IMG/VR virus record: IMGVR_UViG_3300045918_000243
Length of the DNA: 15,570 bases
Direction: 5' to 3' (one strand)
Source of the DNA: a virus
In this document: one piece after another, positions 4,504 through 15,476 of the stretch
Numbering within the stretch: the stretch's first letter is position 1
Layout: each line of letters begins with the position of its first letter
The notes under the pieces: model-generated
Told to the model about the DNA's origin: nothing
Databases searched by the model: none
Seen by the model: only the letters and a program-made list of their open reading frames with translations
Program-made: the position numbers and the translations under genes

Positions 4504-4915
4504 GGGGCTTAATGCCGTCCTGCGGGCGCTCAACGCCTTCCCGAAGGAAGCCAACGTCGAACTAAAGCAGGAATCATCCATCATCGCCAAGACGCTGATG
4601 GTCCCGTCCTATCAGCAGGCGGCTAGGTCCGTCCCCCACTGGGGGGAAATCCTCGCCGGGACAGTCAGGGCGAAACTTGACCGCATCCCGGCAGTGAACA
4701 TCGGCTACGCGGGAGCTAGGTATCGACTGTCCGGTGGGGCAACCCCGAACATGCTGCGTTACCCGTCCGCGTCCGGTAACCGTCGCGGATCATTCGCCCC
4801 CTTCACCCACACAAATTGGCTGGCACGGGCTGAGGGATACAAGCCCGCAGCAATGCAGGCGTGGGGGGATGCGCTGGAACGTGTCGTTCGCAAATGGAAT
4901 AGGGGTCCGGGCTGA
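4475..4915 (+). CDS. HK97 gp10-like head-tail joining / tail-completion protein
   Basis: ATG 4475 is preceded by GGGAGG (4463-4468) with 6-nt spacing. The N-terminus IVEIKGLNAVLRALNAFPKEANVELKQESSIIAKTL fits the gp10-like family pattern (x-V-E-I-K-G-L-..-L..L...PK). Its stop overlaps the tape-measure start (TGATG). Confidence 0.55.
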   Translation: MPSQKIVEIKGLNAVLRALNAFPKEANVELKQESSIIAKTLMVPSYQQAARSVPHWGEILAGTVRAKLDRIPAVNIGYAGARYRLSGGATPNMLRYPSASGNRRGSFAPFTHTNWLARAEGYKPAAMQAWGDALERVVRKWNRGPG

Positions 4916-6993
4916 TGGCTACCGGTGGCCGCACACTCACCGTCTACCTAGCGGCGGACACGTCGAAGGCGACGAAGGAGCTTAAAGGGTTCGGCGGTAC
5001 GATGGCGTCCACGTTCGGCCCCGCCCTGGCGCTAGCAGGCGCGGCAGCGGGCGCGTTCGCCGTGAAAATCGGTGTGGATGCTGTGCAGGCAGCGTCCAAC
5101 CTCAACGAAACAATGAACAAAACCAATGTGGTGTTCGGTGACTCTGCTGACGCGCTGGGCAAGTGGGCGAAGGACGCCGATACTGCCATGGGGCTGTCAC
5201 AGCAGGCAGCCCTTGACGCGGCTTCCGGGTTCGGTGTCATGGGGCAGGCAGCCGGTCTAACCGGTAGCGACGTCGCCAACTTCGCGCAGGGGTTGACCGG
5301 GCTTGCCGCTGATATGGCGTCTTTCTCCAATACGTCCGTGCAGGATGCTATCAACGCCATTGGGTCCGGTCTACGCGGTGAAGCCGAACCCCTCCGCGCC
5401 TACGGGGTACTCCTGGACGATGCCACTTTGAAGGCCAAGGCCATGGAAATGGGGATCTATAACGGCATTGGGGCGCTCAGCCAGCAGCAGCGGGTACTCG
5501 CAGCACAAGCAGCGATCATGGCGCAGACCGCGCAGCAGCAGGGAGACTTTCAGCGCACATCGGAAGGACTGGCGAACCAGACCCGTATCCTGTCCGCCCA
5601 ATTCGACAACCTGAAAGTAGCGTTAGGTCAAGCGCTGCTACGCGGCATGGGTGGCACCACGGACGCCACGAAGTCGATATCCCAGTCGATGAAGGATGCC
5701 ACCCCGATTGTGGAATTCTTCGGGGCGGCTATCGGTGGGCTGATTGAACCGCTGCTGAAAATCGCGGGCGCGGCAGGGAAGGCCACCGGCCCTATCGCCC
5801 GTCTAGCGGAAGCCGCGTCTGGCGGTTCGGTTGGCGCGTCCGATCTGGCCTACGGGTTGAATCCGCTGTATTGGGCGTTGAAATTCGCGGGGTCCGCCGC
5901 AGATATGGCCGCTAGGGGTATCAACGCCACGACTGCTGCTGGTGCTGCTGCCGCTAATCAGGCCGCTGTCGTCACCGCCCGTTACAACGGTCTGGCTAGT
6001 GCAGCGTTCCAAGCCGCTTTCGCCACGAATCAATTGGCGGCAGCAGAGTCGCGGTCCCGTGCTATCTCTGCGGAAGGTTCCCGCTACACGGCGATGGCCG
6101 TGCAGCAATTTGGGAAGTCGATTTCGTACACCGGTGGCACGTTGCAGACGTACCTCTCCCAATTGCACTCCGTCGCATCGGCCACCGGCGGTGGCGGTGG
6201 CGGTGGCGGCGGCGGTGGCGGTGGTGTTACGGGCGCTACGAAGGCGGCTACTGCCGCTATGGACGCGATGACCGCTGCCACCCAAAAGCACATTGACAAA
6301 CTAGATATTGCCGTAGGCAGGTTGAAAGATGCTAAGGCGGCGTGGCAGGACTACGCCGATTCCATCAGTAAGGGGATCTCCGGTGGTCAGGATCTCGCCG
6401 CGTGGATGAAGGAATGGGAGGACGCCGGGAGGAATGGCACCCTCACTGATTTCATTAACGCCAAGATTGGCGGGCAACTAGATTTCTCTGCGCTGCTGGG
6501 AACGATCCCGAACATTCCCAACACGCCCGGTGGTCAGGCGCTCATAAGCCAGATAGCGGCCATGGGGCCGATAGCGGGAACCGATTTCATTAACCAATTC
6601 GGGATCACCGCCCTCGCTGGTCTGGCAACCACCATGGATACGTCCAATGCGGCGTTCCAAGTGGTGGCCGCACAGTGGGCCACCGTGTTCTACGGCGAAG
6701 GTGTCAACGCTGCCACAGCGATGGTGGACGGCATGACCGCGAAGGTCATTGAAGATGAGAAGAAACTCCGCGCCCTCGGTAAGGCCATCGGTGAACCCAT
6801 CGGGGAAGCAATCAAAACGGCGATTGTCAACGCCCTCAACGCTGCCATGGCGGAAGTAGGCGCAAAGTCATCAGCAGCCAGTAACCGGTCAAGCCAGCAG
6901 TCCGTATCCGCTCTCGGGGTTAACCCGCTGGACGCGGCCCGAACTATTGAGGCTGCTATCAGCGCGAAGCAAGCCCGCCTAGGGGTCAAGTAA
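4915..6993 (+). CDS. Tape measure protein
   Basis: This is the largest ORF (692 aa). It is Ala/Gly/Gln-rich and predicted helical, has hydrophobic glycine-zipper-like stretches (GPALALAGAAAGAFAV), and lies downstream of the chaperone region. Confidence 0.85.
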   Translation: MATGGRTLTVYLAADTSKATKELKGFGGTMASTFGPALALAGAAAGAFAVKIGVDAVQAASNLNETMNKTNVVFGDSADALGKWAKDADTAMGLSQQAALDAASGFGVMGQAAGLTGSDVANFAQGLTGLAADMASFSNTSVQDAINAIGSGLRGEAEPLRAYGVLLDDATLKAKAMEMGIYNGIGALSQQQRVLAAQAAIMAQTAQQQGDFQRTSEGLANQTRILSAQFDNLKVALGQALLRGMGGTTDATKSISQSMKDATPIVEFFGAAIGGLIEPLLKIAGAAGKATGPIARLAEAASGGSVGASDLAYGLNPLYWALKFAGSAADMAARGINATTAAGAAAANQAAVVTARYNGLASAAFQAAFATNQLAAAESRSRAISAEGSRYTAMAVQQFGKSISYTGGTLQTYLSQLHSVASATGGGGGGGGGGGGGVTGATKAATAAMDAMTAATQKHIDKLDIAVGRLKDAKAAWQDYADSISKGISGGQDLAAWMKEWEDAGRNGTLTDFINAKIGGQLDFSALLGTIPNIPNTPGGQALISQIAAMGPIAGTDFINQFGITALAGLATTMDTSNAAFQVVAAQWATVFYGEGVNAATAMVDGMTAKVIEDEKKLRALGKAIGEPIGEAIKTAIVNALNAAMAEVGAKSSAASNRSSQQSVSALGVNPLDAARTIEAAISAKQARLGVK
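6187..6225 (+). repeat. Imperfect (GGC/GGT)13 trinucleotide tract encoding Gly13 inside the tape measure
   Basis: ggcggtggcggtggcggtggcggcggcggtggcggtggt read directly; in the TMP frame it is 13 consecutive Gly codons. Confidence 0.95.
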
Positions 6994-10133: not shown

Positions 10134-10202
10134 ATGACGCTGGACATTGTTGAGGTCATCCTTCTGGCCGTTATTCTTGCCATTCTCATCTTCCGCCGCT
10201 AA
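10134..10202 (+). CDS. 22-aa hydrophobic micro-ORF (single transmembrane helix) inside the lysis cassette
   Basis: It encodes MTLDIVEVILLAVILAILIFRR. It starts 3 nt after the endolysin stop, and its TAA overlaps the next ATG (TAATG at 10200-10204). Confidence 0.4.
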   Translation: MTLDIVEVILLAVILAILIFRR

Positions 10203-10693
10203 TGATCGGCGCGATACCGTCCCCGACACCCTCCCCCCTTGTGCCGGTAGAAATTGACCCAAGCCTGCAAATCCACTTGGGCGGGGCGATTGTCATCTGG
10301 ACGGTTATCGCCATTTCGGGTCTGATTTTCTCTGCCACCTTCTTCGGGTGGATGCTGTACCGGACGGGACGCCTACCGCATCCCGCCCCGCTCATCACGT
10401 CCCTGTCCATGCTCACGGCGATAGCGCTAGTGGGTGCCATGCTCACCGGTGACGACAACGTGGGCAACATTGCCGCTGTGGGGTTCGGGGCGCTGGCGGG
10501 GTCCTTAGCATCGGTCTATGGGTTAAAGTCCCCGCAGGTAGCGGAGGAAGGACCGTCCGCTAAACAGACGATAGCCACCCGACTATCGGACACGGTGGAT
10601 GAACTCACCCGCGACACGCCGGATGTGGTTGACACGGACCCCGATACGCCTACTAATGGACCACAACGGAGGGAAAACGCGCCAGACCAGTGA
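10202..10693 (+). CDS. Holin-like membrane protein
   Basis: 163 aa with about three hydrophobic segments (GGAIVIWTVIAISGLIFSATFFGWML; LITSLSMLTAIALVGAML; IAAVGFGALAGSLASVYGL). It ends in a long acidic, hydrophilic C-terminal tail and lies adjacent to the endolysin. Confidence 0.6.
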   Translation: MIGAIPSPTPSPLVPVEIDPSLQIHLGGAIVIWTVIAISGLIFSATFFGWMLYRTGRLPHPAPLITSLSMLTAIALVGAMLTGDDNVGNIAAVGFGALAGSLASVYGLKSPQVAEEGPSAKQTIATRLSDTVDELTRDTPDVVDTDPDTPTNGPQRRENAPDQ

Positions 10694-10806: not shown

Positions 10807-11058
10807 GTGAGTACTAGCGCATCCGTCAAAGTGACGGCAGGCAGATTTGTTGATAACCGTTTGGCCCGTGTCACGGTTGAGGGTTTCAACGGGTTCGGTA
10901 TCGAAATCGTCATGCATCAGGCGGGCGGTGTGGACGGGTTGCCACCCACGATTACCCGAATAGCCATGTATGGGGCGGAAGCTCTGGCGTTCCGTGCCGC
11001 ATTGGAAACCGCGTGCCAGATGGAAGAAGCAGCCGCAGCGGAACGGGGCGCGGCGTGA
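10807..11058 (+). CDS. Hypothetical protein (83 aa)
   Basis: GTG 10807 is preceded by GGAGGGA (10793-10799) with 7-nt spacing. It is the first gene after a 113-bp intergenic gap. Its stop overlaps the next start (GTGA). Confidence 0.6.
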   Translation: MSTSASVKVTAGRFVDNRLARVTVEGFNGFGIEIVMHQAGGVDGLPPTITRIAMYGAEALAFRAALETACQMEEAAAAERGAA

Positions 11059-11528
11059 CCTACGTTGACCTGCCGTTGTTCCCCACCGTTCGGGTGTGTA
11101 TGCGCTGCGGGCGTCAGGACGTGACAGACCCGCAACATGACGTATGTGACTACTGTCTGCACCTAGACCACCGGCCCGATAACCGTCTGCCTACGGGGGC
11201 CGTGGCGTGCCACTGGTGTGCCGCCACTGAATCCCCCTCGCAGGCGGCCACCAATGGCATGTTCGCGGCAGCAGACGCAGACCCGGAATTCATGCACCAC
11301 GCCACCCGTGCGCTGGCCGTCGTCCGCGACACTCGGGAACCATTCACGGCAGCGGAAGTCCGCGCCGTGCTGGAATCGTGGGGTGTGTCCGTGACCGGGC
11401 GTAACGCCCTGGGTGCCGTGTTCGCTTCCGCTAATGCTGCCGGTGTGATCCGGGCTAATGGGGATTTCGTGCCGTCGCCTGTCAAGGGGCAGCATGGTCG
11501 CCCGCTGAGGGTGTGGGTGGCGGCGTAA
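11055..11528 (+). CDS. Zinc-ribbon protein with a possible C-terminal winged-helix-like domain (DNA-binding candidate)
   Basis: GTG 11055 overlaps the upstream TGA. There are three CxxC pairs (CMRC, CDYC, CHWC). The C-terminal FTAAEVRAVLESWGVSVTGRNALGAVFASANAAGVIRANG..HGRPLRVW resembles small DNA-binding domains. The function is inferred. Confidence 0.55.
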   Translation: MTYVDLPLFPTVRVCMRCGRQDVTDPQHDVCDYCLHLDHRPDNRLPTGAVACHWCAATESPSQAATNGMFAAADADPEFMHHATRALAVVRDTREPFTAAEVRAVLESWGVSVTGRNALGAVFASANAAGVIRANGDFVPSPVKGQHGRPLRVWVAA

Positions 11529-11692
11529 TGGAAATCGTGCAATTCCTTGTCGGCGTGGGGCTGCTAGCCGGCTCTTTGGGTATCGGGTTCGTGGCTGGGC
11601 GTGACGCTGCGGAGCGTAAAGCGGCGTACACGATTGCGAACCTGCGTAAATCCAACCGTGAACTCACCAAAGAGCGTGAGTGGTGGGGCTAG
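11528..11692 (+). CDS. 54-aa membrane protein (N-terminal TM helix, basic C-terminus)
   Basis: It encodes MEIVQFLVGVGLLAGSLGIGFVAGRDAAERKAAYTIANLRKSNRELTKEREWWG and has a TAATG overlap with the upstream gene. It is below the ORF-track cutoff. Confidence 0.5.
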   Translation: MEIVQFLVGVGLLAGSLGIGFVAGRDAAERKAAYTIANLRKSNRELTKEREWWG

Positions 11693-11820
11693 TGGCTAAG
11701 TGGACGTGCAGCGAATGCGGCGCTAACGGGGAAGCTGTCAACAGGATCGTTGCCCGTGAACTCCTGACATTGCATTTCGGGGAAGCTCACAACGACGTGC
11801 CATGGCTAGGTGACGAATGA
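11692..11820 (+). CDS. 42-aa Cys2-His2 micro-protein
   Basis: The GTG start shares one base with the upstream TAG. The product is MAKWTCSECGANGEAVNRIVARELLTLHFGEAHNDVPWLGDE (C6, C9, H28, H33). Its stop overlaps the next ATG (ATGA). Confidence 0.45.
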   Translation: MAKWTCSECGANGEAVNRIVARELLTLHFGEAHNDVPWLGDE

Positions 11821-11981
11821 TGCCCGTAGACCTGTCACATTTCCTTGACCACAAGCCGCCGTCCGTCGTTGCCGCGTATTGCATGGCATGGCACACGGAT
11901 AAGGGACTGTGGCTGTCCGCGTGGCAGCCGGGTGAGCGTGCCACCGTGCGTTTGACCATGCGGCGTGTGTGCCGTGGCTAA
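11817..11981 (+). CDS. 54-aa micro-protein (unknown)
   Basis: It encodes MMPVDLSHFLDHKPPSVVAAYCMAWHTDKGLWLSAWQPGERATVRLTMRRVCRG. It has an ATGA overlap upstream and ends in the cgtggctaa junction motif. Confidence 0.45.
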   Translation: MMPVDLSHFLDHKPPSVVAAYCMAWHTDKGLWLSAWQPGERATVRLTMRRVCRG

Positions 11982-12105
11982 CGCTGCCAAGATTCAAGCT
12001 CGCCTATGGCGCTGCAAGGGCTGCGGTGGATGGCGTTATTACCTGAATCGCCCTTGCCATACCTGCCGCATTCTGGCGAACCGTAAAGCGCTAGGTAGGA
12101 CGTGA
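11974..12105 (+). CDS. 43-aa zinc-ribbon micro-protein (CxxC...CxxC), paralog A
   Basis: The GTG sits within GTGGCTAA, overlapping the upstream stop by 8 nt. The product is MANAAKIQARLWRCKGCGGWRYYLNRPCHTCRILANRKALGRT. Its stop overlaps the next ATG (TGATG). Confidence 0.5.
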   Translation: MANAAKIQARLWRCKGCGGWRYYLNRPCHTCRILANRKALGRT

Positions 12106-12248
12106 TGGGGCGCAAGGTCAAGCAACGGAAGCGGCTCGGGCGCACCTATGGCGGGCCTAACAAGCGTAAACCCACGGATAAGCTGTTAGCACGCTGCGCG
12201 GGCTGTGGTGGATGGGCAGCACAGTCATGCCCGCACGGTCCGCCCTAG
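12105..12248 (+). CDS. 47-aa basic zinc-ribbon-like micro-protein, paralog B
   Basis: It encodes MGRKVKQRKRLGRTYGGPNKRKPTDKLLARCAGCGGWAAQSCPHGPP. It shares RCxGCGGW with the previous ORF; at DNA level 12191-12214 and 12010-12033 are identical at 21 of 24 positions. Confidence 0.5.
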   Translation: MGRKVKQRKRLGRTYGGPNKRKPTDKLLARCAGCGGWAAQSCPHGPP

Positions 12249-12614
12249 AACTAGGGACACACAACCTATGGCCCGCCCCCTGGCAGAAAGGGGGACGTAT
12301 TACACCGCGTCAAGGGTCGCAAGGGGGCCACGCCCGTTAGCAAAGTGGCAGTCAAGGGGACACGACTGAGGTGGTCCCATCCCGACAGAGACACGGGAAC
12401 CCATGGTCAAGGAATGTCCGGGCATGGGGCGGGCGGTTCGCGTCCGTGGCTAAACCTCCCTCTCTGATTCCCGACCATTAGGGCGCAAGCCCTGTCAATG
12501 ACAACCGCGTAACGACTCACCAAACCGCGTGTGCAATTGCCTCCCTCTCACATGAGGGGGGGGCCATTCCCGCCCACGATCTACCGCCCGCGTATGTGAA
12601 AGGAGCAAAGAGCC
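12249..12614. other. 366-bp stretch with no confidently callable gene; hairpin- and repeat-rich
   Basis: Only very short ORFs or ORFs lacking a start are present: ATG 12268 gives 33 aa with four AGG codons, and a frame open over 12255-12467 has its only start at GTG 12345. Contents include cctccctctc twice (12455-64, 12540-49), accgcgt three times (12304, 12504, 12524), a G8 run (12556-63) and several stem-loops. Confidence 0.6.
12540..12561 (+). promoter_or_regulatory. Stem-loop built from the second cctccctc box and the G-run
   Basis: cctccctc (12540-47) pairs with gagggggg (12554-61), 8 bp with one T-G wobble pair (G-U in RNA), around the loop tcacat. It lies about 40 nt upstream of the AAAGGAG SD (12599-12605) of the next ORF. 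Confidence 0.35.
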
Positions 12615-12746
12615 ATGACCCGTGTGACTAAGTGTCAGCGTCCTAGCCGTTGCCCCACATGCCTAGCTCCTATGCGCCGTGGTCAACCCATACGCAAGAG
12701 CAAGGGTCGTTGGCACCACGACGGATGCGAGGAACCGAATGGTTAG
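12615..12746 (+). CDS. 43-aa Cys/His-rich micro-protein
   Basis: ATG 12615 follows AAAGGAG (12599-12605). The product is MTRVTKCQRPSRCPTCLAPMRRGQPIRKSKGRWHHDGCEEPNG. The next ATG overlaps its stop by 8 nt (ATGGTTAG). Confidence 0.5.
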   Translation: MTRVTKCQRPSRCPTCLAPMRRGQPIRKSKGRWHHDGCEEPNG

Positions 12747-12963
12747 GCAATGGCTTGACCCTGGCACGCCTAGAGGTAGGGCTGTGCAAGCAAGGGAACG
12801 CTACACACAGCTACCGTTGTGTGAGTGTGGATGGCGTGGGCAGCCGTCAGCGTCGTATGCGGACGCTTGGGGGCAGGCGGCCCGCCATGCCCAGGGGTGC
12901 CACCCCGGTGATACCCATCAGTCTGCAGCCAAGGCGTGGAAGCGTGCGCGTGACTGTGGCTAA
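12739..12963 (+). CDS. 74-aa Cys-containing small protein (CxCGW motif)
   Basis: It encodes MVRQWLDPGTPRGRAVQARERYTQLPLCECGWRGQPSASYADAWGQAARHAQGCHPGDTHQSAAKAWKRARDCG. It is the internal start of track ORF 12679..12963 and ends in the tgtggctaa junction. The competing frame (track ORF 12650..) is Arg-rich and of low complexity here. Confidence 0.45.
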   Translation: MVRQWLDPGTPRGRAVQARERYTQLPLCECGWRGQPSASYADAWGQAARHAQGCHPGDTHQSAAKAWKRARDCG

Positions 12964-13213
12964 ATGGGGAGGACGGCGGCTACAGCGTATGACGCGGGTC
13001 GTGCAGGAAACGTATGGCTGGGATTGTTGGCTGTGTCTGTCACCCATAGAAGCAAGCCAGTACAGCATTGACCACGTTGTCCCTAGGTCTAAAGGTGGAG
13101 AGGTATGGGACGTGGATAATATGCGCCCCGCCCATATTAAATGTAATTCGTCACGCGGAAATAGAACACCTAAACAAATAAAACTAATCCCTAATCCATC
13201 CCGCCAATGGTGA
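12956..13213 (+). CDS. HNH endonuclease
   Basis: The HNH motif is clear: CWLCLSP...YSIDHVVPRSKGGEVWDVDNMRPAHIKCNSSRGN. GTG 12956 (within GTGGCTAA, overlapping the upstream TAA) is the preferred start; ATG 12989 is an alternative. The 187-aa track version (from 12650) is probably over-extended. Confidence 0.85.
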   Translation: MAKWGGRRLQRMTRVVQETYGWDCWLCLSPIEASQYSIDHVVPRSKGGEVWDVDNMRPAHIKCNSSRGNRTPKQIKLIPNPSRQW

Positions 13214-13270
13214 AAAGAAATAGATAAATAATGCGAATCTAATCAGCGGAACGGTTTTTAAGCGTGCCGT

Positions 13271-13304
13271 GGAAACGCCCCCCCTCGTTTTCGTTTCTTA
13301 TTCT
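13271..13304 (+). terminator. Weak intrinsic-terminator-like hairpin plus T-rich tail downstream of the HNH gene
   Basis: ggaaacg (13271-77) pairs with cgttttc (13086+200-13292, i.e. 13286-13292), 7 bp with one G-T wobble, around the loop ccccccct, which begins with a C7 run. It is followed by gtttcttattct. Confidence 0.3.
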
Positions 13305-13342
13305 GAGGTCCGCGTGAATATGTGGGGGTATTAGATTAGTAG

Positions 13343-13371
13343 TTGAAAGATTAAGTAGTGTCTATTAGTTT
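13343..13371 (+). promoter_or_regulatory. Sigma-70/SigA-like promoter candidate (TTGAAA-17-TAGTTT)
   Basis: ttgaaa (13343-48), a 17-nt spacer, then tagttt (13366-71). It lies about 35 nt upstream of the first ORF of the terminase/structural gene string. Confidence 0.3.
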
Positions 13372-13405
13372 TCATTAGATGGCATTAGATTGGTTAGGGG
13401 ACCGG

Positions 13406-13582
13406 ATGAACTCGGCAGAATACGCATGGCGCGGTGGGTTCCAGACGGGCCGCGATTCCGTGGTGGAACAAGTGTGGGCTTTCATCCGTGACCACGGAAC
13501 CCCGGTCACCGGGAAGGGCGAAACGACAATTAGCGTGGACGCACTGTTCGCGGTCATAGATCCTCGGAGGGATGGCACATGA
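13406..13582 (+). CDS. 58-aa hypothetical protein upstream of the small terminase
   Basis: ATG 13406 is preceded by AGGGGA (13396-13401). Track ORF 13379..13582 starts inside the repeat array. Its stop overlaps the next ATG (ATGA). Confidence 0.5.
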   Translation: MNSAEYAWRGGFQTGRDSVVEQVWAFIRDHGTPVTGKGETTISVDALFAVIDPRRDGT

Positions 13583-13911
13583 CGGACACGATGTTCAGCG
13601 CCCCACGTCGGAAGCAGGGGGCGGCGGAAGCGCTGCTGTCGAAGACTCTGCGGGCGTGGCATGAGTCTGGGCATCTGGCTGGGGACGCCTACGCCGTCCA
13701 CCGGGGCATCCTTCGGGACGCTGCACGGGCTGTGGATGCTGCTAGGGCCGCGTCTAGGAACGGTGAGTGTTCGGACCACACGTTTGCACGGGTGAACAAG
13801 ATGTTCCTTGAATCGGTGCAGGCTTTCGCCCCTGGAGAGGAGCCTAGCCATGACGATATTGACGCCCTTATCGCCAATATCAGCGGCGGCCCCACGATTC
13901 ACCACGGCTAG
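13579..13911 (+). CDS. Putative terminase small subunit
   Basis: 110 aa, predicted helical, immediately upstream of and overlapping the large terminase. The call is by position and size only. Confidence 0.45.
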   Translation: MTDTMFSAPRRKQGAAEALLSKTLRAWHESGHLAGDAYAVHRGILRDAARAVDAARAASRNGECSDHTFARVNKMFLESVQAFAPGEEPSHDDIDALIANISGGPTIHHG

Positions 13912-15274
13912 GAATTCCGCTAACCCCACCCATGGTCCCGGTGTGGCTGCTGTCGCGCTGGCGCTGGGTTGGCCGCTGCTGCCGTGGCAACGGCACGTTG
14001 CAGACGTAGCGTGCGAGATTGACCCGTCTACGGGGACGTGGCGCTACCCGACAGTGGTCATTTCCACGCCCCGACAGGCAGGGAAGTCCAGTCTTTTGGG
14101 GGCGATTCTGACGCATCGGGCGATGACACAGCGCGATTCCCTGCACTGGTACACAGCGCAGACGGGGCTGGCGGCCCGTGACACATGGCGTAAATGGGAG
14201 TACAAACTCACCGAAACGATGCCGGGGCGCTGGCGTATGCGCCGTGCAGCTGGGGAGGAACGCGCCACCTTCCTAGCCACGAATAGTTTCGTCCGGGCGT
14301 TCCCACCCACGCCTAAGAGTCTGCACGGGCAGCAGGCGGACACCGTGGTCATTGACGAATGCTTCTCTTTCACCCCGGATCAAGGCGATTCCATACTGCA
14401 AGCGGTGGTCCCGACGCAGGCGACACGCCGTCAGCGCCAAATGTTCATTATCAGCACCGCCGGAAATGATGAGTCCGTGTGGTTCCGGGCGTGGATTGAG
14501 AAAGGGCGGGCCGCGTGCCTAGACCCTCACTCCTCTATCGCGTTCTTTGAGTGGTCCGCGCCCGACGATGCCCCAATTGACGACCAAGAGACGTGGCGGA
14601 CATTCCATCCGGGTTACCCGATGCTGATAGATGACGCGGCTATGGCAGCAGCCATGGACCAATTCGGCCCGGAGGGGTTCGCTAGGGGCTACCTGAACCG
14701 CTGGCCCACAGCGGAACTCTCTTGGCGGGCGGGTTGGCCCGCCCTGGCATCCGTAGACGTCCTACCCGCTGACGCTCCCGTGTTCATCGCAGCGGACGCC
14801 GCCCCGAACCACCGCACAGCCGCCATCGTCGCCGCCGGGTCACTCCCCGATGGGCGGGTAGCCGTGGAAGTCCTGTCCACAGGTGACGGTGTGGAATGGG
14901 TGCTACCCCGCCTAGCGGATCTCCACCGCAAGCACCGGTGCCGGATCGTCATCCAACGCACCGGGCCACTCGGCTACATGATCGAGGAGCTAGAACGTGC
15001 CGGTGTGAGGGTGACAGCGGCGACGGAAGCGGACTACGGGGACGCGGTGGCACGGTTCCGCACCATGGCCGCTGCCGGGGAACTCGCCCACCAGTCCGAC
15101 CCGCGCCTGAATTCTGCCGTGGATGGGGCCGTGTCCCGGAAGCGTGGGGACCGGGAAGTGTGGTCACGGAAAGACGCCAACGTAGATCTGGCCCCACTGG
15201 TGGCGGCGACGTTCGCTGTGTGGCAGGCGGCTACCCCGCCACCCGTCCCCATGGTCATATCCCTACCCCGGTGA
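13850..15274 (+). CDS. Terminase large subunit
   Basis: Walker A-like STPRQAGKSS, Walker B-like ADTVVIDECF and the coupling motif IISTAG are present, followed by a C-terminal nuclease-size domain. ATG 13850 follows GGAGAGGAG (13835-43). Alternatives are the track start at 13808 and GTG 13943. Confidence 0.85.
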   Translation: MTILTPLSPISAAAPRFTTARNSANPTHGPGVAAVALALGWPLLPWQRHVADVACEIDPSTGTWRYPTVVISTPRQAGKSSLLGAILTHRAMTQRDSLHWYTAQTGLAARDTWRKWEYKLTETMPGRWRMRRAAGEERATFLATNSFVRAFPPTPKSLHGQQADTVVIDECFSFTPDQGDSILQAVVPTQATRRQRQMFIISTAGNDESVWFRAWIEKGRAACLDPHSSIAFFEWSAPDDAPIDDQETWRTFHPGYPMLIDDAAMAAAMDQFGPEGFARGYLNRWPTAELSWRAGWPALASVDVLPADAPVFIAADAAPNHRTAAIVAAGSLPDGRVAVEVLSTGDGVEWVLPRLADLHRKHRCRIVIQRTGPLGYMIEELERAGVRVTAATEADYGDAVARFRTMAAAGELAHQSDPRLNSAVDGAVSRKRGDREVWSRKDANVDLAPLVAATFAVWQAATPPPVPMVISLPR

Positions 15275-15311: not shown

Positions 15312-15476
15312 ATGACTATCAAACGTTTCGCGCTGGCTTTCCTACTGTCCGCCATCATCCTGAGTATCGGGTTCGCGGCGGTAGTCTTCACTAATACGCC
15401 CGGAATGCTCGGGCTTATCCCCGTTTTCGGGTTAGCGGTTCTCCCTTTCGCGGCATTGGCGAAAGTCTCCCACTAA
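15312..15476 (+). CDS. 54-aa two-helix membrane micro-protein between the terminase and the portal
   Basis: ATG 15312 follows GGAGGGG (15298-15304). The product is MTIKRFALAFLLSAIILSIGFAAVVFTNTPGMLGLIPVFGLAVLPFAALAKVSH. Its 3' end lies in the terminal repeat and is also present at 1..33. Confidence 0.5.
   Translation: MTIKRFALAFLLSAIILSIGFAAVVFTNTPGMLGLIPVFGLAVLPFAALAKVSH

What the first reader, a model, noticed from the sequence alone, without database searches (positions are those of the whole stretch)
11692..12963. Array of translationally coupled Cys/His-motif micro-proteins with internal paralogy (candidate early/accessory module)
Between the lysis genes and the HNH gene lies a string of six ORFs of 42-74 aa on the + strand. 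All but one are below typical annotation cutoffs. They are linked by 1-8 nt overlaps.

Metal-binding-type motifs in five of the six ORFs:
- 11692: C-x2-C...H-x4-H
- 11974: RCKGCGGW...CHTC
- 12105: RCAGCGGW...CPH
- 12615: CPTC...HHDGC
- 12739: LCECGW...GCH
- The upstream 157-aa protein (11055) adds three more CxxC pairs.

The two RCxGCGGW ORFs are adjacent and share 21 of 24 nt over the motif, which indicates tandem duplication. A genome this small devotes more than 1 kb to these micro-ORFs and has no recognisable replication or regulatory genes. The array is therefore the best candidate for undescribed host-takeover, nucleic-acid-binding or anti-defence functions.
Basis: partly seen in the sequence, partly recalled or inferred. 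Interest (0 to 1): 0.7.

Follow-up and report, generated by a model that had tools for sequence, protein, structure and literature searches.

The report
Phage zinc micro-genes flank structured RNA
In a tiny uncultured phage genome, six very small genes are real and conserved, five of them with zinc-binding signatures, and they flank an overlooked, conserved 340-base element that folds like a structured RNA and matches no known RNA family.

Summary
The six micro-ORFs exist as described. They are real genes: each has homologues in 1-8 diverged relatives, all about 15-16 kb metagenomic phages, with pN/pS of 0.16-0.6 against the nearest relatives and synonymous sites mostly near saturation. Five carry four invariant Cys/His ligands. 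Cys makes up 6.25% of these proteins against 0.46% of the rest of the proteome.

The "array" is not continuous. A 366-nt gap (12249-12614) splits it, and this gap is non-coding. It holds a roughly 340-nt element found in 8 distinct sequences (the window and seven relatives), always on the + strand. In the core, 16 of 32 base pairs show compensatory changes, and stem loops are GNRA or UUCG. No Rfam family matches.

The last micro-gene (12739) belongs to a family that sits next to terL in cultured small actinophages (RRH1 gp3, Decurro gp5, Schiebs gp3). It therefore looks like part of the packaging unit, not an early gene.

The RCxGCGGW pair is an old paralogy at most, not a recent duplication. 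The upstream 157-aa protein is a zinc ribbon plus winged helix, so a DNA-binding regulator or initiator candidate does exist.

None of the micro-protein functions was tested. The host-takeover or anti-defence idea has no evidence for or against it.

The parts
11055..11528 (+). Context gene. 157-aa protein with an N-terminal zinc ribbon (three CxxC pairs) and a C-terminal winged-helix domain. It is the first gene of the coupled block.
   Evidence: 17 homologues. The C52/W54/C55 residues and the C-terminal domain are conserved. AF2 pLDDT is 81.6, with an H-H-H-strand-strand C-terminus. Foldseek matches PadR/Pex and ORC/MCM winged-helix domains at prob 0.9-1.0, E 0.04-0.5. pN/pS is 0.36-0.60.
11513..11692 (+). 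Context gene. 59-aa protein with a hydrophobic N-terminus and the conserved motif GRDAAERKA. Its stop overlaps the start of the first micro-ORF by 1 nt.
   Evidence: Homologues in 9 loci. pN/pS is 0.18 against L001.
11692..11820 (+). Micro-gene o11692 (42 aa). Invariant W4, C6-x2-C9, H28-x4-H33 and P37-W38, giving a C2H2-type ligand set with an 18-residue spacer.
   Evidence: Homologues in L001, L003, L007, L009, L012, L013 and L033. pN/pS is 0.16 against L001 with pS 0.83. Only 5 small-protein clusters were found among 1.84 billion representatives. No Pfam family matches.
11817..11981 (+). Micro-gene o11817 (54 aa). Two invariant Cys (C22, C52) and conserved Trp/Leu residues. No four-ligand motif.
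   Evidence: Homologues in L001, L017, L003 and L009. pN/pS is 0.24 against L001.
11974..12105 (+). Micro-gene o11974 (43 aa). Zinc-ribbon type with invariant C14-x2-C17-x10-C28-x2-C31, followed by the basic tail ILANRKxLGR.
   Evidence: Homologues in seven further loci, 8 sequences with the window. pN/pS is 0.24-0.31 with pS 0.7-0.9. PDB profile hits are only generic knuckles such as Nop10, Rpo12/Rpb12 and rubredoxin, at E 0.01-0.7. No significant hit in 50,697 cultured phage records (best E 0.2).
12102..12248 (+). Micro-gene o12102 (48 aa). Basic N-terminus (RKR..GR.YGGPN.RKPTD) followed by C32-x2-C35-x7-C43-x-H45.
   Evidence: Found only in the window phage and in L004, at 64% aa identity, pS 0.75 and pN 0.20. 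In L004 it also follows an o11974-like CxxC..CxxC ORF with a 4-nt overlap. It shares only the 10-residue LxRCxGCGGW stretch with o11974.
12262..12600 (+). Conserved non-coding element, a candidate structured RNA of about 340 nt. It lies directly upstream of the Shine-Dalgarno sequence of o12615. The boundaries are approximate.
   Evidence: 83% nt identity to L003 and 75% to L004, conserved in all six frames. Substitutions are spread evenly over codon positions, and indels are 1-2 nt. An RNAalifold run on a MAFFT alignment gave 26 of 77 pairs with compensatory changes. No Rfam match. No tRNA or tmRNA.
12375..12532 (+). Core of the element, modelled as covariance model R1. Helices in window coordinates:
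- 12386-12391 / 12461-12466
- 12395-12397 / 12457-12459
- 12400-12405 / 12423-12428
- 12411-12413 / 12417-12419
- 12431-12435 / 12441-12445
- 12480-12484 / 12489-12493 (GCAA loop)
- 12506-12509 / 12526-12529 (weak)
   Evidence: R1 finds it in 8 distinct sequences: window, L003, L004, L009, L017 (also L018), L007 (also L008), L033 and L012. Scores are 174 to 25 bits, all on the + strand. 16 of 32 pairs have changes on both sides. 91.5% of cells are paired against at most 54% when partners are slid, and 0/500 shuffles reach this. On the MAFFT-only alignment, 13 of 32 pairs have double changes.
12540..12563 (+). G+C-rich 3' hairpin of the element (CCUCCCUC / GGGGGGGG) with no U tract after it. 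Its 5' arm repeats the C-rich strand of core helix 1 (12456-12465).
   Evidence: A hairpin is present at this place in all 8 sequences, with different stem sequences. Examples are L007 GGGACUCCC/GGGGGUCCC and L017 GGUCCC/GGGGCC. This was read directly from the sequences and was not scored statistically.
12598..12605 (+). Shine-Dalgarno sequence GAAAGGAG, 9 nt before the ATG of o12615. It is the only strong stand-alone ribosome-binding site in the region.
   Evidence: Read directly from the sequence. Similar GGAGG/GAAAGGA sites occur at the same place in relatives.
12615..12746 (+). Micro-gene o12615 (43 aa). Invariant C7, RPSR, C13-x2-C16, RRG and W33-x-H35-x2-C38.
   Evidence: Homologues in L003, L004, L007, L009, L017 and L033, directly downstream of the element in five of the six. 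In L003 a 96-aa ORF lies between the element and the gene. pN/pS is 0.27-0.34. Weak PHROG match to phrog_1581 (unknown function, E 1.2e-5). Distant versions in L001 and L013 (E 3-5e-4). No hit in cultured phages.
12739..12963 (+). Micro-gene o12739 (74 aa). Invariant Q4, D7, L25, C28-x-C30-G-W-R and H50-x4-H55. It overlaps the HNH start by 8 nt.
   Evidence: Homologues in L001, L004, L007, L009, L013, L017 and L033. pN/pS is 0.54-0.78, the weakest of the six, so the frame rests mainly on the invariant residues and on reaching the most distant relatives. The family HMM also hits the gene just after terL in these phages:
- Schiebs gp3 (8e-10)
- RRH1 gp3 (2e-8)
- McGonagall gp3 (1.5e-7)
- Decurro gp5 (4.5e-7)
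- Emperor gp3 (5.6e-7)
- L040 (4e-14)
JGI names one member 'predicted small metal-binding protein'. One of 7 members hits DUF1059 at E 0.006. AF2 pLDDT is 73, showing a beta-hairpin plus two helices, with no significant PDB fold match.
12956..13213 (+). Context gene. HNH endonuclease (85 aa), the last gene before the A+T-rich region and the terminase genes.
   Evidence: Pfam HNH at E 1.3e-7, above the cut-off. 69-77% aa identity in relatives. The long 187-aa reading of this frame (12650-13213) is not conserved upstream of 12956.

Best explanation
The region is the right arm of a roughly 15.6-kb uncultured siphophage related to small actinophages. It holds two translationally coupled gene blocks separated by a structured RNA-like element.

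Block 1 runs from 11055 to 12248. It contains the zinc-ribbon plus winged-helix protein, a 59-aa membrane-like protein and four micro-genes.

Block 2 runs from 12615 to 13213. It contains two micro-genes and the HNH endonuclease, and it continues across the A+T-rich region into the terminase genes.

Shown here:
- All six micro-ORFs are genes under purifying selection.
- Five encode single mini-domains with four invariant Cys/His ligands.
- The 366-nt gap is non-coding and keeps a base-paired architecture through compensatory changes.

Inferred:
- The mini-domains each bind one zinc ion. Being too small for catalysis, they act as binding modules for nucleic acid or for partner proteins.
- The four proximal ones work with the winged-helix protein in regulation or replication set-up.
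- o12739 works with the HNH/terminase packaging machinery, because its family always sits among packaging genes.
- The element is transcribed on the + strand. It acts as a structured leader in front of whichever gene follows it, setting the expression of the o12615-o12739-HNH unit and possibly the packaging genes after it.
For: Genes are real:
- tblastn homologues occur in up to 9 diverged loci, and the stated frames always reach furthest.
- pN/pS is 0.16-0.27 against the nearest relative for five of the six, with pS 0.4-0.9. o12739 is weaker at 0.54-0.78.
- For o12102 against L004, pS is 0.75 and pN 0.20.

Metal ligands are invariant. Cys enrichment is 13-fold, p = 2.8e-6.

o12739 links to packaging. 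The family HMM hits the post-terL gene in five cultured small actinophages and in L040.

The upstream protein has a winged helix.

The element:
- It is conserved in all frames.
- Substitutions are even over codon positions and indels break the frame.
- Covariation is present.
- L007 and L033 were not used to build the model, yet keep the helices with new compensatory pairs.
- Stem loops read GCAA, GUAA or UUCG on the + strand only.
- It always lies 75-98 nt upstream of a start codon with a Shine-Dalgarno site. In L003 that downstream gene is a different one.
Against: - No experiment or expression data exist. The phage is known only from metagenomes.
- Zinc binding is inferred from ligand patterns alone.
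- No micro-protein matches a curated family above threshold, so function rests on size and synteny.
- The minimum free energy of the element is not better than shuffles (z = -0.10).
- G-U against A-C counts do not identify the strand (6 against 10).
- No promoter and no canonical terminator were found.
- The motif ACCGCGT occurs three times inside the element, which would also fit protein-binding sites on DNA.
- L001 and L013 carry distant o12615-like genes without the R1 core.
- Only 8 distinct sequences support the covariation.
Confidence: 0.6

Rival explanations
1. The micro-proteins form an early accessory module for host takeover or anti-defence, acting on host proteins and not on phage processes.
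For: - They are small, lineage-restricted and mosaic in content between relatives, with gains and losses of genes.
- The o11692 family has only 5 clusters among 1.84 billion representatives.
- Phage small proteins often target host factors (review PMC11323111, listed).
Against: - No match to any known anti-defence or takeover protein. The best is a meaningless E 0.35 to AcrVIA2.
- The core set and its order are conserved across relatives whose endolysins are only 36% identical. Accessory cargo is not usually this stable.
- o12739 is syntenic with packaging genes.
- The timing of expression is unknown.
Confidence: 0.2
2. The conserved gap acts as DNA, not RNA. It would be an origin of replication or another protein-binding site, for example for the winged-helix protein, with repeated ACCGCGT sites and hairpin-prone DNA.
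For: - Three ACCGCGT copies lie within 340 nt, against 9 in the whole 15.6 kb and 4.25 expected.
- The genome has no replication enzymes of its own, so an origin with an initiator is needed somewhere.
- The fold is not thermodynamically exceptional.
- The G-U/A-C count is strand-neutral.
Against: - Sixteen base pairs are maintained by double substitutions across long distances, such as 12386-12391 with 12461-12466. Double-stranded binding sites do not need this.
- The GNRA and UUCG loops are meaningful only in + strand RNA.
- The element's position and orientation relative to the next Shine-Dalgarno site are fixed.
Confidence: 0.2
3. The element is a trans-acting or ribonucleoprotein RNA. It would be a discrete stable RNA ending at the G+C-rich hairpin, bound by the adjacent zinc-finger protein o12615.
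For: - Many invariant unpaired stretches suggest tertiary or protein contacts: CCCGAC, GGUNAAGG, UCCGGGC, UGAUUCCCGA.
- The R1 core occurs together with close o12615 homologues in 7 of 7 loci where the downstream sequence is available.
- The 3' hairpin could be a U-less terminator. That such terminators are common in Actinobacteria is from my own knowledge.
Against: - In L003 another gene lies between the element and o12615.
- L001 and L013 have distant o12615-like genes without the core.
- No promoter was found.
- No binding data exist.
Confidence: 0.15
4. The micro-ORFs are chance ORFs of G+C-rich DNA, or the real genes lie in other frames, such as the 187-aa ORF 12650-13213 that automatic annotation calls.
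For: - Gene callers called a 184-aa HNH-frame ORF over this stretch in L015 and skipped several micro-ORFs.
- The window has 166 ORFs of at least 35 aa in six frames.
Against: - The stated frames are the ones conserved in the most distant relatives. Other frames match only where the DNA itself is still similar.
- The N-terminal extension of the HNH frame is not conserved.
- pN/pS is well below 1 with saturated pS.
- The ligand residues are invariant.
Confidence: 0.02

Closest known systems
Small post-terminase proteins of cultured small actinophages: Rhodococcus phage RRH1 gp3, Arthrobacter phage Decurro gp5, Gordonia phages Schiebs gp3, McGonagall gp3 and Emperor gp3. All are annotated 'hypothetical protein'.
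   Same: The o12739 family profile hits all of them at E 8e-10 to 5.6e-7. They share the layout of a strand, then C-x(1-4)-C-x-W-R, then a helix with H-x4-H. All sit among packaging genes.
   Different: In those phages the gene lies between terL and portal. Here it lies just before HNH, upstream of terS/terL, and a 54-aa membrane ORF fills the terL-portal slot (15312-15476). No function is known for any member.
Pfam DUF1059 (PF06348), described by JGI/COG as 'predicted small metal-binding protein'
   Same: Similar size and ligand order to o12739, with two Cys in a hairpin followed by a helix with two His. JGI gave one homologue (P0019) that name. One of 7 members hits the model at E 0.006.
   Different: The window protein and 6 of 7 members do not match at all. 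No member reaches the gathering score, so membership is not established.
Zinc-ribbon micro-proteins in the right arms of other small actinophages (RRH1 gp16, Schiebs gp21)
   Same: These are 60-80-aa proteins with CxxC-x16-CxxC, next to an HTH protein and upstream of HNH. I read this from the translations. The genomic setting matches that of o11974.
   Different: No detectable sequence homology to o11974 or o12102 (HMM searches). The spacing between knuckles is 16 residues, against 10 here.
Phage Mu Com, a small zinc-finger protein that binds a structured mRNA leader and activates translation of the downstream gene (from my own knowledge, not tested here)
   Same: It combines a zinc-finger protein of under 70 aa with a structured leader RNA in a phage late-function operon. 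This is a possible working analogy for o12615 and the element.
   Different: There is no sequence similarity. Com is encoded upstream of the leader it binds and that leader is short. Here the RNA is about 340 nt and the protein gene lies downstream.
Phage leader or anti-termination RNAs (HK022 put, the lambda late 6S leader) and large phage-associated ncRNAs (GOLLD, ROOL), from my own knowledge; the Rfam families were searched
   Same: These are structured RNAs encoded by phages, placed in front of late genes or in non-coding gaps, and recognised through covariation.
   Different: No Rfam model, including these, gives more than two chance-level hits at E up to 10. At about 340 nt the element is much larger than put and smaller than GOLLD or ROOL. 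It was found only in this phage clade.
HNH-terminase packaging modules of cos phages (from my own knowledge: HNH proteins next to terminase genes assist cos cleavage)
   Same: An 85-aa HNH gene is the last gene before an A+T-rich region and the terS/terL genes. Decurro, RRH1 and Schiebs have the same layout.
   Different: Here two zinc micro-genes are translationally coupled to the HNH gene, and a structured element precedes them.

Membership tests
Zinc ribbon / rubredoxin-like knuckle pair (o11974) | Two CxxC knuckles separated by a short spacer, all four Cys conserved | tested here: met
   C14-x2-C17-x10-C28-x2-C31 is invariant in 8 sequences.
Zinc ribbon / rubredoxin-like knuckle pair (o11974) | Significant match to a curated zinc-ribbon model or a solved structure | tested here: not met
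   Only Zn_ribbon_IS1595 at E 0.025, below the cut-off. PDB profile hits are at E 0.01 or weaker, to Nop10, Rpo12 and rubredoxin.
Zinc ribbon / rubredoxin-like knuckle pair (o11974) | Binds one Zn(II) ion | not testable with these tools
   Needs metal analysis of purified peptide.
Classical C2H2 zinc finger (o11692) | C-x2-4-C-x12-H-x3-5-H spacing and a match to zf-C2H2 models | tested here: not met
   The ligands are C-x2-C-x18-H-x4-H (C-x4-C in P0024), so the spacer is 18 residues, not 12. No zf-C2H2 hit. Only scattered sub-threshold hits appear, such as zf_CopZ at E 0.037 and Zn_ribbon_DnaG at E 0.0044 in one member.
DUF1059 (PF06348) small metal-binding protein (o12739) | Score above the Pfam gathering threshold | tested here: not met
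   The window protein has no hit. One of 7 family members hits at E 0.0063.
SWIM zinc finger, CxCxnCxH (o12739) | Third Cys and the His of the CxH pair conserved | tested here: not met
   The Cys of 'GCH' is present only in the window protein and L001. The conserved ligands are CxC and H-x4-H.
Post-terL small protein family of small actinophages (o12739) | Profile match to RRH1 gp3, Decurro gp5 and Schiebs gp3 | tested here: met
   hmmsearch E values are 8e-10 to 5.6e-7 in a database of 1451 ORFs. L040 scores 4e-14.
Post-terL small protein family of small actinophages (o12739) | Position between terL and portal | tested here: not met
   Here the gene lies directly upstream of HNH (12739-12963). 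It is still within the packaging neighbourhood, but in a different slot.
Any Rfam RNA family (element 12262-12600) | Covariance-model score at or above the gathering score, or at least a low E-value | tested here: not met
   No hit in the region at E up to 1 on the whole window. On the sub-region alone only two chance-level hits appear, at E 1.6 and 9.1. Nothing was found in the related loci L017 and L018.
Structured RNA in general (element) | Base pairs kept by compensatory substitutions beyond the controls | tested here: met
   16 of 32 pairs have double changes. 91.5% of cells are paired against at most 54% when slid, and 0/500 shuffles reach this. The result holds on the MAFFT-only alignment.
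Structured RNA in general (element) | Thermodynamic stability beyond shuffled sequence | tested here: not met
   z = -0.10 on the + strand and +0.56 on the - strand.
Cis-regulatory leader or riboswitch-like element | Fixed position and orientation upstream of a coding start | tested here: met
   The core ends 75-98 nt before a start codon with a Shine-Dalgarno site in window, L004, L009, L017, L007 and L033. In L003 another gene starts at that point.
Cis-regulatory leader or riboswitch-like element | Alternative terminator/anti-terminator or SD-sequestering structures; a ligand or bound factor | tested here: inconclusive
   A C-rich 10-mer (12456-12465) is repeated in the 5' arm of the 3' hairpin (12540-12549). 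Both could pair with the G8 run. This was read directly from the sequence and only for the window subgroup. No ligand can be inferred.
Winged-helix DNA-binding proteins (157-aa context protein) | H-H-H-strand-strand fold matching solved winged-helix domains | tested here: met
   AF2 pLDDT is 84-97 over residues 75-157. Foldseek prob is 0.9-1.0 to PadR/Pex and ORC/MCM8 winged-helix domains, but E is only 0.04-0.5.
Tandem duplication (o11974 / o12102) | Similarity between the paralogues exceeds what selection on a shared motif would give | tested here: not met
   Only 10 residues align. 21/24 nt between paralogues compares with 20/24 between the o12102 orthologues of window and L004. The pair is already present in L004.

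The most novel reading that the evidence does not exclude
The 340-nt element is a new class of phage RNA with an active role. It could be a riboregulator that times the switch to packaging-gene expression together with the zinc-finger protein encoded next to it, forming a small RNP. Alternatively it could be an RNA that primes or licenses replication in a phage that encodes no replication enzyme. The surrounding zinc micro-proteins would then be its partners.
Probability: 0.12. Interest if true: 0.85.

Novelty: new variant of a known kind. Interest (0 to 1): 0.62.

Why it matters
Small actinophages of about 15 kb are the minimal tailed phages. Almost everything outside their structural genes is unannotated.

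This work shows that about 1.3 kb of such a genome is filled with real but mostly uncalled or miscalled features:
- Six micro-genes, five of them single zinc-binding mini-domains.
- One family that turns out to be shared by all five cultured small actinophages examined, next to their packaging genes.
- A structured RNA-like element that gene callers either skip or annotate as a 103-aa protein.

If the element and its neighbours control late gene expression or replication, they would explain how a phage with no polymerase, primase or known regulator runs its programme. The covariance model and protein profiles built here give concrete handles for finding more members and for experiments in culturable relatives such as RRH1, Decurro and Schiebs.

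Tried and rejected
DNA and protein searches in cultured phages and public collections:
- Near-identity DNA search of 11000-13400 in cultured phages gave nothing.
- The search for related loci with the 157-aa protein in viral contigs gave nothing. With the HNH alignment it returned only the relative already known.
- The search for homologous proteins with o12615 found no candidate, probably because such short genes are not called in that collection.
- tblastn of o12615 and o11974 against cultured phages gave nothing or only E of 0.2 or weaker.

Pattern scans for the element:
- The metagenome scan returned 9 loci, all chance matches in coding DNA.
- The genome-collection scan returned 5 loci, none confirmed by the model.

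Family and structure assignments:
- Pfam, PHROGs and PDB profile searches of the micro-protein families gave only sub-threshold or generic zinc-finger hits. UVR8 and TAL-effector hits are repeat artefacts.
- A profile-profile comparison of the o11692 and o12739 families showed no relationship (prob 3%).
- The Foldseek search of the o12739 model had its best hit at E 3.2.

Work on the RNA-like element:
- Strand assignment by G-U against A-C counts and by minimum free energy was not decisive.
- Homology of the element to the unannotated gap of Gordonia phage Schiebs, or to the gaps of L001 and L013, could not be shown.
- The sigma-70 and terminator scan found nothing useful in the region.

I also considered and rejected SWIM, classical C2H2, recent tandem duplication, and the long 187-aa HNH-frame ORF. 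The reasons are in the membership table.

Full report
SETTING

The window is a complete, circularly permuted phage-like genome of 15,570 bp. The gene order is portal, capsid-protease fusion, tail genes, tape measure, endolysin, holin-like protein, the region in question, HNH, an A+T-rich stretch, and terS/terL.

It has no close relative among 50,697 cultured phage records. Its large terminase is 31-36% identical to those of Rhodococcus phage RRH1, small Gordonia phages and Arthrobacter cluster AN phages. Identical copies of the region occur in two other metagenome samples (L014, L015).

Diverged relatives came from two routes. One was protein look-ups through the 157-aa neighbour. The other was pattern scans. 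Together they gave ten distinct loci with endolysin identity from 86% down to 24-36%. All are 15-16 kb metagenomic contigs or fragments of such contigs.

CHECK OF THE OBSERVATION

The six ORFs, their lengths, the quoted motifs, the short overlaps and the 21/24-nt repeat are all present.

The Cys/His content is far above chance:
- The six proteins contain 6.25% Cys against 0.46% in the other proteins of the genome.
- Every CxxC in the proteome lies between 11055 and 13213.
- A two-pair Zn-like pattern occurs in 5 of 6 micro-ORFs against 6 of 159 ORFs of the same length taken from all six frames (p = 2.8e-6).

ORF 12102 ends at 12248 and ORF 12615 starts 366 nt later, behind its own strong Shine-Dalgarno site (GAAAGGAG, 12598-12605).

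THE MICRO-ORFS ARE GENES

Each micro-ORF has homologues in relatives:
- o11692 in seven further loci.
- o11817 in four.
- o11974 in seven.
- o12102 in one (L004).
- o12615 in six, plus two distant versions.
- o12739 in seven.

When every stop-to-stop segment of the region in all six frames is searched against the relatives, the stated frames always reach the most distant loci. Other frames match only where the DNA itself is still similar.

Nei-Gojobori counts give pN/pS of 0.16-0.27 against the nearest relative for five of the six, with synonymous sites mostly near saturation (pS 0.4-0.9). For o12102 against L004, pS is 0.75 and pN is 0.20. o12739 is weaker, at 0.54-0.78. Its frame rests on the invariant residues and on reaching the most distant relatives.

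Automatic annotation calls a 187-aa reading of the HNH frame (12650-13213). This reading is not conserved upstream of 12956.

The invariant residues of each family are:
- o11692: W, C-x2-C, H-x4-H, PW (12 sequences).
- o11974: C-x2-C-x10-C-x2-C.
- o12102: C-x2-C-x7-C-x-H.
- o12615: C-x5-C-x2-C ... W-x-H-x2-C.
- o12739: C-x-C-G-W-R ...
- o11817: only two invariant Cys.

WHAT THE FAMILIES ARE

None reaches the threshold of any Pfam, PHROG or PDB-sequence family. The hits are generic zinc knuckles.

The o11692 family is tiny. It has five small-protein clusters among 1.84 billion representatives.

o12739 is the exception:
- A profile of the family matches the small gene directly after terL in Schiebs, RRH1, McGonagall, Decurro and Emperor, at E 8e-10 to 5.6e-7.
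- It also matches that gene in a further metagenomic phage, L040.
- JGI labels one homologue 'predicted small metal-binding protein', and one member touches DUF1059 at E 0.006.
- The AF2 model (pLDDT 73) shows a beta-hairpin carrying the two Cys, followed by two helices carrying the His pair. It has no significant PDB fold match.

This family is thus a constant companion of the packaging genes of small actinophages. In the present clade it has moved to the slot in front of HNH.

THE PARALOGY CLAIM

o11974 and o12102 align over ten residues only. The 21/24-nt identity of the motif compares with 20/24 between the o12102 orthologues of the window and L004. Other orthologues use other synonymous codons.

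L004 is the most distant relative with this part. It also has an o11974-like ORF followed by o12102 with a 4-nt overlap. If the two are paralogues, the duplication is old. A recent tandem duplication is not indicated.

THE UPSTREAM 157-AA PROTEIN

Seventeen homologues share a conserved C-terminal domain and a CxWC motif. The N-terminal CxxC pairs are missing in several of them. AF2 (pLDDT 81.6, above 90 in the C-terminal domain) gives three helices and a beta-wing. Foldseek matches PadR/Pex regulators and ORC/MCM winged-helix domains, with prob 0.9-1.0 and E 0.04-0.5.

The genome therefore does have a candidate DNA-binding regulator or initiator. Cluster AN phages have an 'O-like' HTH protein with Cys-rich repeats in the same arm.

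THE GAP IS A STRUCTURED, NON-CODING ELEMENT

Evidence that the gap is non-coding:
- Window 12260-12595 is 83% identical to L003 and 75% to L004, although the flanking proteins are only 62-73% identical.
- All six frames appear 'conserved'.
- Substitutions fall evenly on the three codon positions (16/18/25 and 25/29/27).
- Indels are 1-2 nt long.

Evidence for structure:
- RNAalifold on a plain MAFFT alignment of five sequences predicted 77 pairs, 26 with compensatory changes.
- A covariance model of the 157-nt core (12375-12532) found the element in L007/L008, L012 and L033 as well. It was always on the + strand and nowhere else in these loci.
- On eight sequences, 16 of 32 pairs show changes on both sides. 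91.5% of cells are paired against at most 54% when partners are slid, and no shuffle out of 500 reaches the observed values.
- On the alignment not fitted to the model, 13 of 32 pairs show double changes.
- The hairpin just 5' of the core reads GGGAC/GUCCC in the window, GCGGA/UCCGC in L003, GCAUGGG/CCCAUGC in L009 and CGUGUCC/GGACACG in L033. This hairpin and the G+C-rich 3' hairpin also keep pairing with different sequences. I read this directly.
- Loops are GCAA, GUAA or UUCG on the + strand. On the other strand they would have no special meaning.

Evidence against, or neutral:
- The fold is not more stable than shuffles (z = -0.10).
- G-U against A-C counts are 6 against 10.
- No promoter or U-tract terminator was found.
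- ACCGCGT occurs three times inside the element.

Distribution:
- No Rfam family matches, and there are no tRNA or tmRNA genes.
- The element was not found in 185,579 species genomes by pattern plus model.
- It was not found in cultured small actinophages.
- Gene callers annotate a 103-aa protein over it in L007.

HOW IT MOST LIKELY WORKS

Shown: two coupled gene blocks, a structured element between them, a strong ribosome-binding site right after the element, and o12739 tied to packaging genes.

Inferred:
- The mini-proteins each fold around one zinc ion and act as binders.
- The proximal four act with the winged-helix protein in regulation or replication set-up.
- o12739, and perhaps o12615, act with HNH and terminase.
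- The element is a structured leader on the + strand transcript. It governs expression of whatever follows it. In L003 a different gene has been inserted at exactly that place.
- In the window subgroup, the 5' arm of the 3' hairpin repeats the C-rich strand of core helix 1. Both can pair with the G8 run, which is the kind of arrangement a switch would use. I could not test this.

None is excluded. The chance-ORF explanation is excluded.

COMPARISON AND NOVELTY

Zinc-finger micro-proteins and structured leaders are known kinds of phage parts. The particular families here are not in curated libraries, the RNA has no family, and the arrangement has not been described. That arrangement is zinc micro-genes coupled on both sides of a 340-nt structured element, with the distal ones coupled to HNH.

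A preprint on small actinophages notes only shared terminase, portal and tape-measure families. It does not mention the post-terL small gene, HNH or zinc proteins (10.1101/2022.02.05.479200).

I rate this a new variant of a known kind, with interest 0.62. The micro-proteins alone would rate about 0.45. The RNA element, and the link of o12739 to a pan-small-actinophage packaging-associated family, raise the score.

Noticed in passing
window 10202-10693; L001 6932-7396: The holin-like 163-aa protein is 95.6% identical to its L001 counterpart, while the neighbouring genes are 49-83% identical. This looks like a recent exchange of one gene between two otherwise diverged phages.
   Followed up: no
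window 13214-13378: An A+T-rich stretch (G+C 0.47 against 0.62 for the genome) lies between HNH and the first terminase-side ORF. It holds a terminator-like hairpin (13269-13294) and a 14-nt direct repeat (13327-13340 / 13381-13394). It is probably the cos or genome-end region.
   Followed up: no
window 15312-15476: A 54-aa ORF that is hydrophobic throughout lies between terL and portal. Cultured small actinophages carry the o12739-family gene in exactly this slot.
   Followed up: partly
L001 8753-9000 and L013 2856-3115: These two relatives lack the R1 core. Their gaps at the same place share a 33-nt stretch (E 6e-4) containing CCGTTA and TAAACCAACC, plus GNRA-capped hairpins. This may be a second variant of the element, in front of a distant o12615-like gene.
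   Followed up: partly
L049 (Gordonia phage Schiebs, MN234213.1) 13225-13733: An unannotated 510-nt gap sits in the right arm between small genes and HNH. It contains 'CGCCGTTAGAGGG' and 'CCCGATCACGTAG..CAACCGAATACCGA', which resemble parts of the element. nhmmer, blastn and model R1 gave no support.
   Followed up: partly
L013 1619-2733: One relative carries a Vut_1 (PF02592) family membrane protein, named for a vitamin uptake transporter, and a 206-aa gene. Both are inserted in the middle of the micro-gene block.
   Followed up: no
L001 8046-8351; L004 6318-6515: Relatives carry further Cys-rich micro-ORFs that the window lacks. One is a 101-aa ORF with many Cys in L001. The other is a 65-aa ORF with C..CxxC in L004. 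The block gains and loses such genes.
   Followed up: no
L007 6025-6336; L015 1930-2484; L009 4972-5238 (- strand): Public gene calls in relatives place a 103-aa protein over the RNA-like element, a 184-aa 'HNH' over o12615, o12739 and HNH together, and a minus-strand 88-aa ORF over the o11974 homologue. Several micro-genes are not called at all.
   Followed up: yes
window 6150-6200 (tape measure gene 4915-6993): The tape-measure protein contains a run of 13 consecutive Gly residues.
   Followed up: no
window 13579-13911 and 13808-15274: The terS-like ORF and the listed terL ORF (TTG start at 13808) overlap by 104 nt. The true terL start is probably further downstream.
   Followed up: no
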